DNA of 64,000 bases from Eledone cirrhosa (taxonomy: Eukaryota): NCBI GenBank assembly GCA_964016885.1, contig OZ024749.1, positions 930,001 to 994,000 on the forward strand, given 5' to 3'. The notes under the pieces are model-generated. The model saw only the letters and a list, made by a program, of their open reading frames with translations. It had not been told where the DNA came from and did no database searches. This document shows, in pieces, positions 385 to 59,931 of this stretch. Within the stretch, counting starts at the first letter, position 1; each line of letters starts with the position of its first letter. The translations under genes were made by a program, and so were the position numbers.

Positions 385-901
385 AAATGTAATCCGAGTT
401 TTTCGAATATTAATAATTGTTTCTACTTTTGGCACAAGGCCAGCAATTATCCCAGTGCATTACTGGTACTTTATTTTATCGACCCCGTAAGGATGAAAGG
501 CAAAGTTAACCTCGGCGGGATTTCAACTCAGAACGTAAAGCGCCATAACTCTATGCAGTAAAGCAACATTAATAATAACATTCGATTCGTTTGCAATTAT
601 GCAAACACGCCTCAATTTTATAGCCATGTTAGTAGAATGAACACTTCATTCTTGTTCTTGTGTTGGCATGCGAACAGAACTGCAGAAACTAATGTTTCTA
701 GGTATCACCCTTCATCAGTACAGCTCTGTGTTCACCTGCCAAACTGTGAGCTGTACTGATGAAGGGTGATGTTCGCATGCCAACACAAGAGCAAGAATGA
801 AGTGTTCATTCTACTGACATGGCTATAAAATTGAGGCTTGTTTGCATAATTGCAAACGAATCGAATATTATTATTAATATTCGAAAAGCTCAGATTACAT
901 T
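385..901 (-). mobile_element. Fold-back Penelope-like pLTR derivative with hammerhead-like motif; left arm interrupted by a SINE
   Basis: 385-416 plus 568-676 is the reverse complement of ~770-901. Minus strand 726-677 reads GAGCTGTA-CTGATGA-AGGGTGATACCTA-GAAAC-ATTAGTTTC-TGCAGTTC. Flanked by (TA)n. Confidence 0.7.
417..567 (-). mobile_element. tRNA-derived SINE family A, 5'-truncated
   Basis: Matches the many copies of gtttctacttttggcacaaggccagc...aaggatgaaaggcaaagttaacc. ATTAATAAT is duplicated on both sides (408-416, 568-576). Confidence 0.85.
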
Positions 902-1295
902 TATATATATATATATATATATATATATATATATATATATATATATATATATATATATATATATTTATATATATATATATATATATATATATAAATATAT
1001 ATATATAAATGGAAAAGAATAAAACGAAATTTCATTTCTCACTCTTAGTACGGCTGCTACTTAAATGTAAGTATCACATATATATATGTAGATATATATG
1101 TAATATATATATATATGTATACATATATATATATATATTACATACATATCTACATATATATATATATTACATACATATCTACATATATATATATATGTAT
1201 ATATATATATATATCTACATATATATATATATGTGTGTATATATATATATACATATATAAAGAAGAAATTAAAAGATGGTTAAAAAAGTTCCATA

Positions 1296-1365
1296 TATTT
1301 TATTATGCGCATTTCGAAAGCAATATCATCCTAGGACAAAAATTGTGTTCTCATCAGATAAAATA
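1296..1365 (-). ncRNA. Type I hammerhead ribozyme motif (inverted copy, perfect 8-bp stem I)
   Basis: Minus strand reads TATTTTAT-CTGATGA-GAACACAATTTTTGTCCTAGGATGATATTGCTTTC-GAAA-TGCGCA-TA-ATAAAATA. Confidence 0.72.
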
Positions 1366-1385
1366 AGGTAACATGATATGAGGCC

Positions 1386-1455
1386 TATTTTATCTGATGA
1401 GAACACAATTTTTGTCCCAGGATGATGTTGTTTTCGAAATGCGCATAATAAATTA
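1386..1455 (+). ncRNA. Type I hammerhead ribozyme motif (canonical core)
   Basis: TATTTTAT-CTGATGA-G[long stem II]C-GAAA-TGCGCA-TA-ATAAA. Stem I pairs and stem III is the palindrome ATGCGCAT. Confidence 0.7.
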
Positions 1456-1618
1456 TTTGGAGCTTTTTTAATTTCTTTTTTATATATACTCCAGTTCTAC
1501 CAACTGTTGAGTGCTACTTATCTGATATATGTATAGTTTTATTGTTCTACAATATTACTCACCTCGTATATATATATATACATATATATCTACACATATA
1601 TATATATATACATATATG

Positions 1619-56500: not shown

Positions 56501-56720
56501 ATGACCGGTGGGTAAAAAAGTGCCAAGAAATCCCAGTAGAAAGAAGACGCAGTAGAGTTAGACCACGAAAAACATGGGCGGAGGTGGTGAGAGCAGACCT
56601 CAGATCACTGAAGCTCACGGAGGAGATGACGAAGGACCGTTACAAGTGGAGAGATGCTGTGCTGAATAGGACTCGTCCCACCCTTGCAAGCAGGGAAGAG
56701 CGGATGTAAAATGATGATGA
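53543..56720 (+). mobile_element. Near full-length RTE-clade LINE (decayed)
   Basis: 5' UTR, APE motifs (AGDFNGHVG, SQIDFLLVR), RT motifs (VDLEKAFD, GVHQGSVLS, YADD), a Cys/His finger and a (GAT)n tail. Multiple stops and frameshifts. Confidence 0.95.
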
Positions 56721-56739
56721 TACATATATATATATATGT

Positions 56740-58805
56740 ATGGTTAAGAAGTTTGCTTCACAACATAGCTCTGGATTCAATCCTAGAATGTAGCACCTTG
56801 GTCAGGTGTCTTTTACTATAGTAACAGGTTGACCAATATCTTGTGTGACACCTTTGTCAAGTTTCTACTATAGTAACAGGTTGACCAATGTCTTGTGTGA
56901 CACCTTTGTCAAGTGTCTACTATAGTAACAGGTTGACCAATGTCTTGTGTGACACCTTTGTCAAGTGTTTACTATAGTAACAGGTTGACCAATGTCTTGT
57001 GTGACACCTTTGTCAAGTGTCTACTATAGTAACAGGTTGACCAATGTCTTGTGTGACACCTTTGTCAAGTATCTACTATAGTAACAGGTTGACCAATGTC
57101 TTGTGTGACACCTTTGTCAAGTGTTTACTATAGTAACAGGTTGACCAATGTCTTGTGTGACACCTTTGTCAAGTATCTACTATAGTAACAGGTTGACCAA
57201 TGTCTTGTGTGACACCTTTGTCAAGTATCTACTATAGTAACAGGTTGACCAATGTCTTGTGTGACACCTTTGTCAAGTATCTACTATAGTAACAGGTTGA
57301 CCAATGTCTTGTGTGACACCTTTGTCAAGTATCTACTATAGTAACAGGTTGACCAATGTCTTGTGTGACACCTTTGTCAAGTGTCTACTATAGTAACAGG
57401 TTGACCAATGTCTTGTGTGACACCTTTGTCAAGTGTCTACTATAGTAACAGGTTGACCAATGTCTTGTGTGACACCTTTGTCAAGTATCTACTATAGTAA
57501 CAGGTTGACCAATGTCTTGTGTGACACCTTTGTCAAGTATCTACTATAGTAACAGGTTGACCAATGTCTTGTGTGACACCTTTGTCAAGTGTTTACTATA
57601 GTAACAGGTTGACCAATGTCTTGTGTGACACCTTTGTCAAGTATCTACTATAGTAACAGGTTGACCAATGTCTTGTGTGACACCTTTGTCAAGTGTTTAC
57701 TATAGTAACAGGTTGACCAATGTCTTGTGTGACACCTTTGTCAAGTATCTACTATAGTAACAGGTTGACCAATATCTTGTGTGACACCTTTGTCAAGTGT
57801 TTACTATAGTAACAGGTTGACCAATGTCTTGTGTGACACCTTTGTCAAGTATCTACTATAGTAACAGGTTGACCAATGTCTTGTGTGACACCTTTGTCAA
57901 GTATCTACTATAGTAACAGGTTTACCAATGTCTTGTGTGACACCTTTGTCAAGTGTCTACTATAGTAACAGGTTGACCAATGTCTTGTGTGACACCTTTG
58001 TCAAGTGTTTACTATAGTAACAGGTTGACCAATGTCTTGTGTGACACCTTTGTCAAGTGTCTACTATAGTAACAGGTTGACCAATGTCTTGTGTGACACC
58101 TTTGTCAAGTATCTACTATAGTAACAGGTTGACCAATGTCTTGTGTGACACCTTTGTCAAGTGTTTACTATAGTAACAGGTTGACCAATGTCTTGTGTGA
58201 CACCTTTGTCAAGTATCTACTATAGTAACAGGTTGACCAATGTCTTGTGTGACACCTTTGTCAAGTATCTACTATAGTAACAGGTTTACCAATGTCTTGT
58301 GTGACACCTTTGTCAAGTGTCTACTATAGTAACAGGTTGACCAATGTCTTGTGTGACACCTTTGTCAAGTGTTTACTATAGTAACAGGTTGACCAATGTC
58401 TTGTGTGACACCTTTGTCAAGTATCTACTATAGTAACAGGTTGACCAATGTCTTGTGTGACACCTTTGTCAAGTTTCTACTATAGTAACAGGTTGACCAA
58501 TGTCTTGTGTGACACCTTTGTCAAGTGTCTACTATAGTAACAGGTTGACCAATGTCTTGTGTGACACCTTTGTCAAGTGTCTACTATAGTAACAGGTTGA
58601 CCAATGTCTTGCAAGTGGAATTTGGGAGACAGAAACTGTAGAAGTTCATGATGGGTGGGTGTGTATGTGTTTATAGCCCACAAATTAGGGAGTTTGACAA
58701 AAAAGAAAGCAGATTTGAAAGAAAATAAGTACTGGGGTGAATATCAGTGACAAAATCAACAAGGTGCCCCAACATGGCCACAGTCTAAAAACTGAAACCA
58801 ATAGA
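56740..58805 (+). mobile_element. tRNA-derived SINE (CR1-like tail) hosting an internal satellite
   Basis: Head tggttaagaag...ggattcaatcc before the array. The body resumes after 58612 and ends ataagtactgggg...ggtgccccaacatggccacagtc. Confidence 0.65.
56795..58611. repeat. 52-bp tandem repeat, ~35 highly homogeneous copies
   Basis: (TACTATAGTAACAGGTTGACCAATGTCTTGTGTGACACCTTTGTCAAGTRTY)n. Confidence 0.97.
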
Positions 58806-59509
58806 ATTGTGTAGTGCCCCAGCATGGCTGTAATCTAATGAATGAAGAAAGTAGAAGAGTATGATGCCCCAGCATGGCCACAAACTTTCCTTCTGTATTA
58901 ACTGTTGTACAATATAAGAGAATCATGAACTATCTGTAAATCCTAAATCCACAAATGAGAAATTACAAAGTAAATTTGAGTGGTTGATAATCTCAGCTGT
59001 CATGTCTAACTATATATATATACATATATAAACATGCACATACATATATATAGACACAGAAACAAAAACACACACATATATATATATATATACATACAAA
59101 CACACACATACATATATATCCACACACTCACATACATCTGCATCCAGCACTACAGGTGAATCACTGATTACAGGTGGTGTTGAGGTGACAACAATGTGAC
59201 AGATTCTTGCTAACTACAACCAACTGGTGCCACTTTCAACAGAAAACAATGTTAATAATTAACATCTACTGAAGCACAAATGAACAAAAATTAATTGGAA
59301 GAAAAAAAATTGTTTTAAAATTATTTGTTATCTATGTAATATATTATTATCATTAACGGTTTTGTTTTAACTCTTTTGTTACCATATTTCTAATGAAATA
59401 CACAGCCCGTGATGTATTTTTTTGATGAACAGAAACACTTAAAAAATAAACTGCTTTCTATCAGAGAATAGGTGCAGTTTCAGGCATTTGGTATGAAAAG
59501 AGTTGAAGA

Positions 59510-59931
59510 TATCTAAAGCCTGAGAGGTGACCAGCAGTAACTGTTAAGAAACTGGGCTGATACTATATAATATAACATAGTATTAATATAAACAGCTGAA
59601 AAGTAAAAAGATGAATATAGTAAGTTAAAAATAACAGCTATTGCAAATCTTAGTATATACACAAGTGAAAGTATAAGGAAAAGAAATTGAAAATGCAACT
59701 GGAGTCTTTTCAAGAATATTTATTTGTTTCCTTTACCGGCTTCACAGTTCTTATGCTTGTGGAGGGTTTGTTGTTTTTCTTGCAGATGCAAGAAAAACCA
59801 CAAACCCTCCATCTCAATTCTACTTTTGAAAAGCATAAGAACTGTGAAACCGGTAAAGGAAACAAATAAATATTCTTAAAAAGACTCCAGTTGCATTTTC
59901 AATTTCTTTTCCTTATACTTTCACTTGTGTA
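59510..59931 (-). mobile_element. Fold-back PLE pLTR derivative with decayed hammerhead motif
   Basis: Arms ~59658-59810 and 59787-59931. CTT-TTGAAAA-GCATAAGAACTGT-GAAA-CCGG-TA-AAG with palindromic stem III ACCGGT. Confidence 0.72.

What the first reader, a model, noticed from the sequence alone, without database searches (positions are those of the whole stretch)
385..59931. Recurrent short fold-back elements carrying hammerhead ribozyme motifs
Seen: about 11 inverted-repeat elements (385-901, 1262-1566, 3955-4352, 14511-14705, 15933-16290, 19765-20170, 22105-22510, 25433-26887, 46140-46330, 52950-53530, 59510-59931) from about nine apparently unrelated sequence families. They share one architecture: two inverted arms, usually an unpaired tail of ~30-150 nt on one side, no coding capacity, and mostly (TA)n flanks. 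Nine carry a full or partial CUGANGA...GAAA...UH motif with pairable stems. Known: Penelope-like elements carry hammerheads in their pseudo-LTRs and often insert with an inverted, truncated pLTR plus a 3' tail. Inference: these are extreme 5'-truncated PLE insertions, or a non-autonomous hairpin retrozyme-like class. A density of about 1 per 6 kb would make them a major source of genomic hairpins. I do not know of a description in cephalopods.
Basis: partly seen in the sequence, partly recalled or inferred. Interest (0 to 1): 0.85.

Follow-up and report, generated by a model that had tools for sequence, protein, structure and literature searches.

The report
Penelope retroelement head-to-head insertion hairpins
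The hairpins are real and very common in this genome: each is two short end-pieces of a Penelope-like jumping gene joined head to head in a (TA)n repeat, likely made during insertion by two separate starts of reverse transcription, and the families share a small RNA stem-loop that may be the enzyme's landing site.

Summary
All 11 hairpins exist. They fall into nine high-copy families. Four (A, F, G, H) run 5' into reverse transcriptase plus GIY-YIG ORFs, so they are 3' ends of Penelope-like elements (PLEs); B and E are 440-480-bp retrozyme-like tandem units; C is a 271-bp tRNA-headed unit without a ribozyme. Of 181 head-to-head pairs, 150 have one tailed and one tail-less arm; junctions vary between copies, so the hairpin is an insertion product, not a mobile unit. 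A complete hammerhead is present in 5 of 11 window elements (motif 9 vs 0.02 in shuffles). The architecture is published (Craig 2021, Cervera 2014), and this scan saw it before in three other genomes. New here: about 1 hairpin per 7.5 kb genome-wide (at least ~160,000 PLE-assignable); 5' ends piling up ~31 nt behind a TATA-like box (likely run-off at the transcript start); a bulged stem-loop (RCUC...YH-GAGY, compensatory A-U/G-C) at the tail start in 13 unrelated families; and a tRNA-headed family inserting with PLE hallmarks. No RNA data or cleavage test was possible. Verdict: new variant of a known kind.

The parts
383..904 (.). Family B fold-back (retrozyme-like 436-439-bp unit). Left arm 383-417 + 565-750 (minus), split by a SINE at 418-564; right arm 770-904 (plus). 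Hammerhead core at 718 (minus), stem III one substitution off; both arms tail-less
1253..1566 (.). Family A fold-back (3' end of a Penelope-type PLE). Tail-less arm 1253-1387 (minus), tailed arm 1386-1566 (plus); complete hammerheads at 1357 (minus) and 1394 (plus)
1488..1512 (+). Tail stem-loop motif RCUC-[stem-loop]-UU-GAGY of family A
3954..4352 (.). Family C fold-back (tRNA-headed 271-bp unit; this copy is truncated inside the tRNA part). Tailed arm 3954-4032 + 4217-4277 (minus), split by a SINE at 4030-4216; short arm to 4352 (plus). No hammerhead
14507..14705 (.). Family D fold-back; centre at 14643, 6 nt before the hammerhead core; cores at 14638 (minus) and 14649 (plus), each one change from complete; tail motif 14554-14572 (minus). 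No ORF found within ~370 nt upstream in longer copies
15933..16290 (.). Second, older family A fold-back; complete hammerhead at 16121 (minus); tail motif 15990-16014 (minus)
17631..17754 (-).
19765..20170 (.). Family E fold-back (retrozyme-like 477-479-bp unit); only the 3' half of the hammerhead, in the spacer; tail motif 19806-19827 (minus)
22096..22509 (.). Family F fold-back (3' end of a Neptune-like PLE); complete hammerheads at 22287 (minus) and 22358 (plus); right arm starts 31 nt behind the family's TATA box
25433..26887 (.). Family G fold-back (3' end of a Penelope-type PLE) with ~500-bp unrelated spacer; variant hammerhead (CAGAAGA core) at 25587 (minus); tail motif 25470-25515 (minus)
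46137..46330 (.). Family H fold-back (3' end of a Penelope-type PLE); only the 3' half of a hammerhead; centre at the family's 5'-end pile-up; tail motif 46190-46213 (minus)
52950..53534 (.). Second family G fold-back; variant hammerheads at 53100 (minus) and 53466 (plus)
59658..59979 (.). Family I fold-back; variant core CUGUGA on both arms; tail on the right. One longer copy lies behind a Neptune-like endonuclease end
1622..3913 (+). 5'-truncated PLE copy of a tenth family (J): end of ORF with GIY-YIG-type endonuclease (1622-~2640), long 3' UTR, hammerhead-like motif with C3 changed (~3818-3870), ending in (TA)n; not folded back

Best explanation
Each hairpin is a single insertion of a Penelope-like element or a non-coding dependent of one into a (TA)n repeat, made of two short head-to-head copies of the element's end, and it likely forms when the PLE protein cuts both target strands and primes two cDNAs on the same RNA. 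Shown: every family has two fixed 3' ends 36-85 nt apart (the 'tail'); a hairpin nearly always has one arm from each end; arms share subfamily alleles; junctions vary; both ends abut TA repeats. Inferred: the two ends are the two internal reverse-transcription starts reported for the anole element; the two cDNAs run toward the RNA 5' end and are joined at their 3' ends through a few bases of microhomology. Inferred: many copies are so short because priming uses the tail copy near the 5' end of the transcript, so the cDNA runs off at the transcription start after 100-250 nt. Inferred: the bulged stem-loop at the tail start is the RNA element that positions the enzyme in long-tail families. The hammerhead is carried along as part of the pseudo-LTR and is not needed for the hairpin.
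For: ORF linkage in sense orientation for A (L004, L013, L014, L381), G (nine loci), H (L330, L336, L337, L341-344, L348, L380) and F (L378, L379; Pfam GIY-YIG E=3.9e-7). 150 of 181 head-to-head pairs have one tailed and one tail-less arm (13 both tailed, 7 neither, 11 unclear). In 57 of 89 untied pairs the tail-less arm reaches at least 8 nt further 5' than the tailed arm, which simple snap-back of a tailed first strand cannot give. Arms differ at polymorphic sites far less than cross pairs: A 21/300 vs 0.42, C 15/229 vs 0.30, D 8/83 vs 0.39, E 0/27 vs 0.41, H 21/278 vs 0.42. 712 of 777 ends are followed by TA repeats vs 18% of random 30-mers. In 800 kb of unbiased samples 37 of 109 A-I insertions are abutting head-to-head pairs vs 1 of 140 and 0 of 86 for two ordinary SINEs. 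5' ends in those samples: H 32 of 55 arms at -34..-11 and 5 further up, D 17 of 33 at -7..-1, F 4 of 5 at -46..-30; TATA-like box +31 falls at -18 (H), -6 (D), -44 (F), -59 (I). In L339/L380 the H tail is followed after ~110 nt by the ORF start. Two internal RT starts, cutting and extension of both strands, a predicted dimer, and no need for ribozyme cleavage are reported for the anole PLE (PMC11167929).
Against: Shared alleles fit snap-back on one cDNA equally well; later asymmetric deletions at the hairpin centre could also explain the longer tail-less arms. F (16/29, three sites only), G (71/241) and B (12/57) do not show clear allele sharing (G and B pairing is blurred by internal repeats). 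B, E and G show no 5' pile-up and A could not be resolved. The TATA-like patterns were chosen after seeing the data, and only D and F have a canonical TATAWA. No ORF was found for D, one locus only for I, none for B, C, E. No transcript start was measured. Target-site duplications cannot be read inside (TA)n.
Confidence: 0.62

Rival explanations
1. Same PLE origin, but the inverted arm is made by snap-back: one cDNA starts at the distal site, runs off, folds onto itself and copies itself back until it stops at the tail boundary.
For: Arms share subfamily alleles; many centres are near-perfect micro-palindromes; 61 of 150 pairs have arms of equal reach.
Against: 57 of 89 untied pairs have the tail-less arm longer, e.g. 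L088 and L140 by over 100 nt; tail-less solo copies exist, so the proximal end is a priming site of its own.
Confidence: 0.27
2. The hairpins are themselves mobile units, a palindromic retrozyme-like class that copies as a whole.
For: In F about six copies share one symmetric centre and in C several share a centre.
Against: Arm reach and junction letters differ across copies; 242 of 246 junction 32-mers are distinct (inflated by point mutation); the shared F centre is a native micro-palindrome at the 5' pile-up; solo and tandem copies of the same units are common.
Confidence: 0.06
3. MITEs or other DNA-transposon remnants with terminal inverted repeats and TA target duplications.
For: Inverted arms and TA flanks.
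Against: One terminus has an unpaired tail, the inside is variable, and four families continue into RT + GIY-YIG ORFs. Some of the 64 unassigned hairpins in the samples may be of this kind.
Confidence: 0.02
4. Assembly artefacts from fold-back long reads.
For: Palindromic chimeric reads are a known long-read artefact (own knowledge); the window's C arms are 100% identical over 120 nt.
Against: Arms differ by 3-6% like independent old copies, the tail asymmetry is family-specific, and opposite-strand joints in H appear in contigs of public runs X1-X3 (one sample, possibly the source of the assembly).
Confidence: 0.01

Closest known systems
Insertion unit of EN+ Penelope-like elements (Penelope/Poseidon, Neptune; Craig et al. 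2021, PMC8557442, passages read)
   Same: 5' truncation, partial tandems (pseudo-LTR), adjacent inverted truncated copy, one-sided tail, microsatellite targets, hammerhead in the pLTR.
   Different: Tails here are 36-85 nt (30-40 nt in the paper); both arms are often under 200 nt; 5' pile-ups behind a TATA-like box and a shared tail stem-loop were not in the passages read.
Minimal hammerheads of metazoan PLEs (Cervera and De la Pena 2014, PMC4209133, parts 1-2 of 4 read)
   Same: [quoted passage not shown]
   Different: G has a U4-to-A core, I a CUGUGA core, H only the 3' half, C none; scale here is hundreds of thousands.
Anole Poseidon element PAc (Frangieh et al. 2024, PMC11167929, parts 1-2 of 4 and text of supplements 1-2 read)
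   Same: Two internal RT starts bounding the tail, AT-rich targets, both strands cut and extended, ribozyme cleavage dispensable.
   Different: Its tail lies inside the ORF; in H it lies in the 5' leader. By eye the RNA drawn in its Fig. S1 lacks the RCUC/GAGY motif. The parts read do not treat inverted arms or run-off at the transcript start.
Non-LTR retrozymes (PMC7229834, passages; bioRxiv 10.64898/2026.07.22.740005, part 1 of 5 and passages)
   Same: B and E are short non-coding head-to-tail units with one type I hammerhead each; L322 is a 19-unit array of another such family.
   Different: Here they also insert as head-to-head hairpins with PLE tails, direct insertion-level evidence for PLE mobilisation; circular RNA not tested.
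tRNA-derived SINEs; SMalpha SINE-like hammerhead repeats of Schistosoma (seen as passages in PMC8490949; its tRNA-type promoter is recalled, not seen)
   Same: C has a tRNA-like head with A and B boxes and many copies start at it.
   Different: C has no poly(A) or LINE-like end and no hammerhead, has two fixed 3' ends, wraps around as a 271-bp tandem unit, and inserts head to head like PLEs.

Membership tests
EN+ Penelope-like element | Single ORF with RT and C-terminal GIY-YIG endonuclease upstream of the repeat | tested here: met
   A, G, H by tblastn to unnamed 630-806-aa homologues; F by Pfam GIY-YIG E=3.9e-7 and weak RVT_1 E=0.0023. Pfam gave no RT or GIY-YIG hit for the A and H pieces; their PLE label rests on motif reading (own knowledge).
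EN+ Penelope-like element | Same ORF linkage for families D and I | tested here: inconclusive
   I: one locus (L376) with a Neptune-like endonuclease end upstream. D: 25 longer copies share at most ~370 nt upstream, no linked ORF.
EN+ Penelope-like element | Partial tandem giving pseudo-LTRs | tested here: met
   L380 (repeat-ORF-repeat, H), L381 (A), L339.
EN+ Penelope-like element | One-sided tail between two fixed 3' ends | tested here: met
   All nine families; 150 of 181 pairs.
EN+ Penelope-like element | Hammerhead motif in the pseudo-LTR | tested here: inconclusive
   Complete in A, B, D, E, F; variant in G and I; 3' half only in H; none in C.
EN+ Penelope-like element | AT-rich or microsatellite target | tested here: met
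   712 of 777 ends followed by TA repeats vs 18% background.
EN+ Penelope-like element | Clade placement by RT tree (Penelope/Poseidon vs Neptune) | not tested
   No tree built; F called Neptune-like from the Cys-rich linker before GIY-YIG (criterion from PMC8557442).
Naiad (N-terminal EN PLE) | GIY-YIG N-terminal to RT | tested here: not met
   Endonuclease is C-terminal in A, F, G, H.
Non-LTR retrozyme (B, E) | Short non-coding head-to-tail unit with one type I hammerhead | tested here: met
   Periods 428-439 (B) and 458-479 (E); motifs.
Non-LTR retrozyme (B, E) | Self-cleavage and circular RNA | not testable with these tools
   Needs RNA experiments.
tRNA-derived SINE (C) | tRNA-like head with A and B boxes | tested here: met
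   Rfam tRNA 42.4 bits, cut-off 29; B box intact in 29 of 30.
tRNA-derived SINE (C) | Copies begin at the tRNA head | tested here: inconclusive
   15 of 30 loci stop within 5 nt of it, 15 continue into the previous unit (query-selected, includes the query locus and one insertion counted twice). The 4 arms in the unbiased sample do not show it.
tRNA-derived SINE (C) | Poly(A) or LINE-derived 3' end | tested here: not met
   Two fixed ends 36-39 nt apart, unit continues beyond them.
tRNA-derived SINE (C) | Pol III transcription through the unit | not testable with these tools
   A T5 run directly behind the tRNA part in 28 of 30 copies (T5 or longer) argues against easy read-through.
MITE / DNA transposon | Terminal inverted repeats at both ends around a constant inside | tested here: not met
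   One-sided tail, variable centre.

The most novel reading that the evidence does not exclude
Long-tail Penelope families and their non-coding passengers share one RNA signal, a four-base-pair RCUC/GAGY stem with a two-base bulge and a free upper stem-loop, that binds the telomerase-like RT and sets its start; priming at the 5' copy of this signal yields strong-stop-like cDNAs joined head to head; family C is a Pol III tRNA-headed SINE mobilised by a PLE rather than a LINE; and these hundreds of thousands of hairpins are the main source of the double-stranded RNA behind octopus hyper-editing.
Probability: 0.3. Interest if true: 0.75.

Novelty: new variant of a known kind. Interest (0 to 1): 0.52.

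Why it matters
How PLEs make their inverted repeats and tails is named as an open question in PMC8557442. This genome holds hundreds of thousands of natural products of that reaction from dozens of families, enough to test models by counting. The shared tail stem-loop is a concrete candidate for the RNA element the RT recognises and can be mutated in the existing in vitro system. A tRNA-headed element moved by a PLE would be a SINE-partner pairing that I did not find in print. Octopus has unusually high hyper-editing and double-stranded RNA potential of unassigned origin, and Penelope is heavily edited in lizard (PMC5625713, passages); in my samples 2.6% of bases lie in near-perfect inverted pairs, 24% of them in the ten families of this window, 51% in other close fold-backs and 10% in two abundant SINEs.

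Tried and rejected
Rfam scan of the window: the 150 best of 345 rows shown were microsatellite noise, no hammerhead family among them. Strict descriptor found only family A; relaxed to allow an unpaired base at stem II, as published. My idea that the two arms come from different RNA templates was rejected: they share alleles. RNase P processing as the source of C's 5' end is disfavoured but not excluded: several copies carry 4-5 native bases before the mature tRNA start (query-biased). A modified-base stop near tRNA position 58 for C's second cluster of 5' ends is unproven. Family A's apparent 5' wall moved with the reference (-70/-45, -40) and is not used. No sequence similarity links the 3' ends of the ten families beyond 11-15-nt matches, so no partner element could be assigned to B, C, D or E. 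No RNA holder was listed for family C. Contig depth over H and C steps up at the expected places but the H reference is a variant subfamily, so I do not lean on it. Unbiased sampling stopped at 800 kb, which leaves C (3 insertions) and E (0) thinly sampled. Literature searches without a description of these hairpins in octopus, a shared tail stem-loop, twin priming in PLEs or a PLE-mobilised tRNA SINE: (open-access library only; listings, not full texts). Figures and the sequence file of PMC11167929, the supplements and repeat library of PMC13282606, and Repbase/Dfam were not seen and may already hold these families.
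Full report
Observation. A self-comparison of the window with simple repeats masked finds all 11 inverted repeats and two more at 38855-38973 and 62202-62418. They belong to nine families, A to I, each with 301 to 3,162 first-look candidates in the 3.0-Gb own genome, of which the tool scored 40 per search. 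A relaxed type I hammerhead descriptor finds 9 motifs in the window (mean 0.02 in 100 shuffles) and 62 in 600 kb of evenly spaced samples (0-2 in five shuffles; 19 of the 62 are one tandem array). Complete motifs lie in 5 of the 11 elements. B and D are one change off, E has the 3' half, H as a family has only the 3' half, I has a variant core, C has none.

What the families are. Longer copies of A, G and H continue 5' through a long untranslated region into an ORF that matches unnamed 630-806-residue RT plus endonuclease proteins at E down to 1e-80. F continues into an ORF with RT motifs, a cysteine-rich linker and a Pfam GIY-YIG domain. L380 is repeat-ORF-repeat, L381 and L379 are long elements with an inverted arm in front. 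These four families are 3' ends of PLEs. I has one locus with an endonuclease end upstream. D shares at most about 370 nt upstream among 25 longer copies and no ORF was linked. B and E wrap around as head-to-tail units of about 437 and 478 bp with one hammerhead each, the build of non-LTR retrozymes. C wraps around as a 271-bp unit with a tRNA-like head (Rfam 42.4 bits, cut-off 29) and no hammerhead.

The hairpin is an insertion product. Among the 20-30 best loci per family, 8 of 25 (G) to 26 of 30 (H) were listed with an inverted partner (these tallies include the window's own copy, a few loci fetched twice and a few distant partners). Each family has two fixed 3' ends, 36-85 nt apart. Of 181 abutting head-to-head pairs in the 265 loci then held, 150 have one arm at each end, 13 have two tails, 7 none, 11 are unclear. 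Arm reach and junction letters differ between copies. 712 of 777 ends are followed by TA repeats against 18% of random 30-mers. In 800 kb of unbiased samples 37 of 109 A-I insertions are abutting head-to-head pairs, against 1 of 140 and 0 of 86 for two ordinary SINEs. This is the arrangement drawn in Fig. 2 of PMC8557442 (legend and passages read), and opposite-strand hammerhead pairs 100-700 bp apart were ascribed to truncated PLEs in PMC4209133. Three earlier notes of this scan report the same architecture in other genomes; I had reached this reading before looking.

How it likely forms. The two arms share subfamily alleles: at common non-CpG polymorphic sites they differ in 7% (A), 7% (C), 10% (D), 0% (E) and 8% (H) of comparisons against 30-42% for cross pairs; F, G and B do not show this clearly. 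At other sites arms differ by 3-6%, as unrelated copies do, so they have aged independently and are not read chimeras. One template, then. Snap-back of a tailed first cDNA predicts that the tailed arm always reaches at least as far 5'. In fact the tail-less arm is at least 8 nt longer in 57 pairs, the tailed arm in 32, and 61 tie. Later deletions could blur this, but together with tail-less solo copies it favours two primings, one at each start site, from the two cut target strands. The anole PLE protein cuts and extends both strands, starts at two internal sites that bound the tail, is predicted to be a dimer and does not need ribozyme cleavage (PMC11167929). The joining step is inferred.

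Why the copies are so short. In the unbiased samples 5' ends pile up: H 32 of 55 arms at -34 to -11 with 5 further upstream, D 17 of 33 at -7 to -1 with 6 upstream, F 4 of 5 at -46 to -30, I 4 of 7 at -59 to -44 (larger incidental sets). A TATA-like box lies 31 nt before -18 (H), -6 (D), -44 (F) and -59 (I). In H the tail is followed after about 110 nt by the ORF start. So a transcript starting at the pile-up carries a tail copy near its 5' end, and priming there would run off after 60-240 nt, much like strong-stop DNA of LTR elements. Limits: the patterns were picked after seeing the data, only D and F have a canonical box, B, E and G show no pile-up, A is unresolved, and no RNA start was measured. 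In C, 15 of 30 query-selected loci stop within 5 nt of the tRNA head, which would be the Pol III equivalent; a T5 run right behind the tRNA part argues against easy read-through, and the unbiased sample has only 4 C arms.

A shared tail structure. I noticed in A, D and H, then found in E and G, a motif starting within about 5 nt of the proximal end: RCUC, a variable stem-loop, two unpaired bases, GAGY (for E it is in the window copy, not in the reference copy folded). As an out-of-sample test I took all hairpins outside A-I with a one-sided tail and TA at both ends: 31 hairpins in 19 families. Eight families carry the motif 6-9 nt behind the arm end: 8 of 10 with tails of 75 nt or more, 0 of 9 with shorter tails. 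Chance is about 0.0014 per 23-nt window. The closing pair is A-U in six families and G-C in seven, never mixed, and the upper stems have unrelated sequences. The short-tail families B, C, F and I lack it. I read it as the RNA element that positions the RT in one PLE group; that is inference. I found no description in the searches.

Scale. 107 hairpins in 800 kb (1 per 7.5 kb); 75 abut (TA)n; 43 belong to A-I or hold a hammerhead. That extrapolates to about 160,000 PLE-assignable hairpins and up to 400,000 in all; the rest are unassigned and include other repeat types. Near-perfect inverted pairs cover 2.6% of sampled bases, 24% of that in this window's ten families and 51% in other close fold-backs. 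PMC5625713 (passages) reports exceptional double-stranded RNA potential and hyper-editing in octopus without repeat annotation, and heavy editing of Penelope in lizard; the link is untested. PLEs are annotated in octopus (PMC13282606, parts 1-2 of 3; PMC8967140, passages) without mention of these structures in what I read.

Verdict. What lifts it above a new member is the scale, the evidence on mechanism, the covarying tail motif and the tRNA-headed family. None of these has RNA or bench support yet. New variant of a known kind, interest 0.52.

Noticed in passing
window 1622-3913 (+): A 5'-truncated, unfolded PLE copy of a tenth family: endonuclease-coding end, long 3' UTR and a hammerhead-like motif with one core change, ending in (TA)n.
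   Followed up: partly
window 38855-38973 and 62202-62418: Two more hairpins not in families A-I and without a hammerhead; a short PLE endonuclease fragment lies at 62598-62774.
   Followed up: no
L322:458-9027: Array of 19 or more 468-bp units each with an identical complete hammerhead, a classical retrozyme array; the same family forms fold-backs in L272, L277 and L284.
   Followed up: no
L208 (minus strand, around 2250-2700 in locus coordinates): A diverged sister of family C: tRNA-like segment in 92-bp tandem, similar body, inverted arm in front, ending in (TA)n.
   Followed up: no
L057, L261, L131, L157, L189: Pieces of different families abut or fuse (for example a G-type ORF start joined to the F end; G joined to the C head at a shared GG), suggesting template switches and repeated use of the same TA tracts.
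   Followed up: no
window 4862-7510 and 53549-56719: Two degenerate copies of a LINE with RT and a PHD-like finger (Pfam RVT_1, PHD), on opposite strands.
   Followed up: no
window 27382-34155: 6.8-kb array of a 21-bp unit with long open frames; also 31-bp (45013-45637), 34-bp (45749-45984) and 52-bp (56814-58611) arrays. The 31-bp unit matches the tail-motif pattern by itself.
   Followed up: no
window 396-565 and about 15 other places: An abundant SINE, all copies on the plus strand in this window, inserted inside two of the hairpins and therefore younger than them.
   Followed up: partly
window 50858-51406 (-): 182-codon open frame that reads like a Tc1/mariner transposase fragment (recalled resemblance; no Pfam hit).
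   Followed up: no
family F, 6 and 10 nt before the hammerhead core: Arms of one hairpin often differ at two sites inside a short quasi-palindrome, perhaps a recurrent mutation hot spot.
   Followed up: partly
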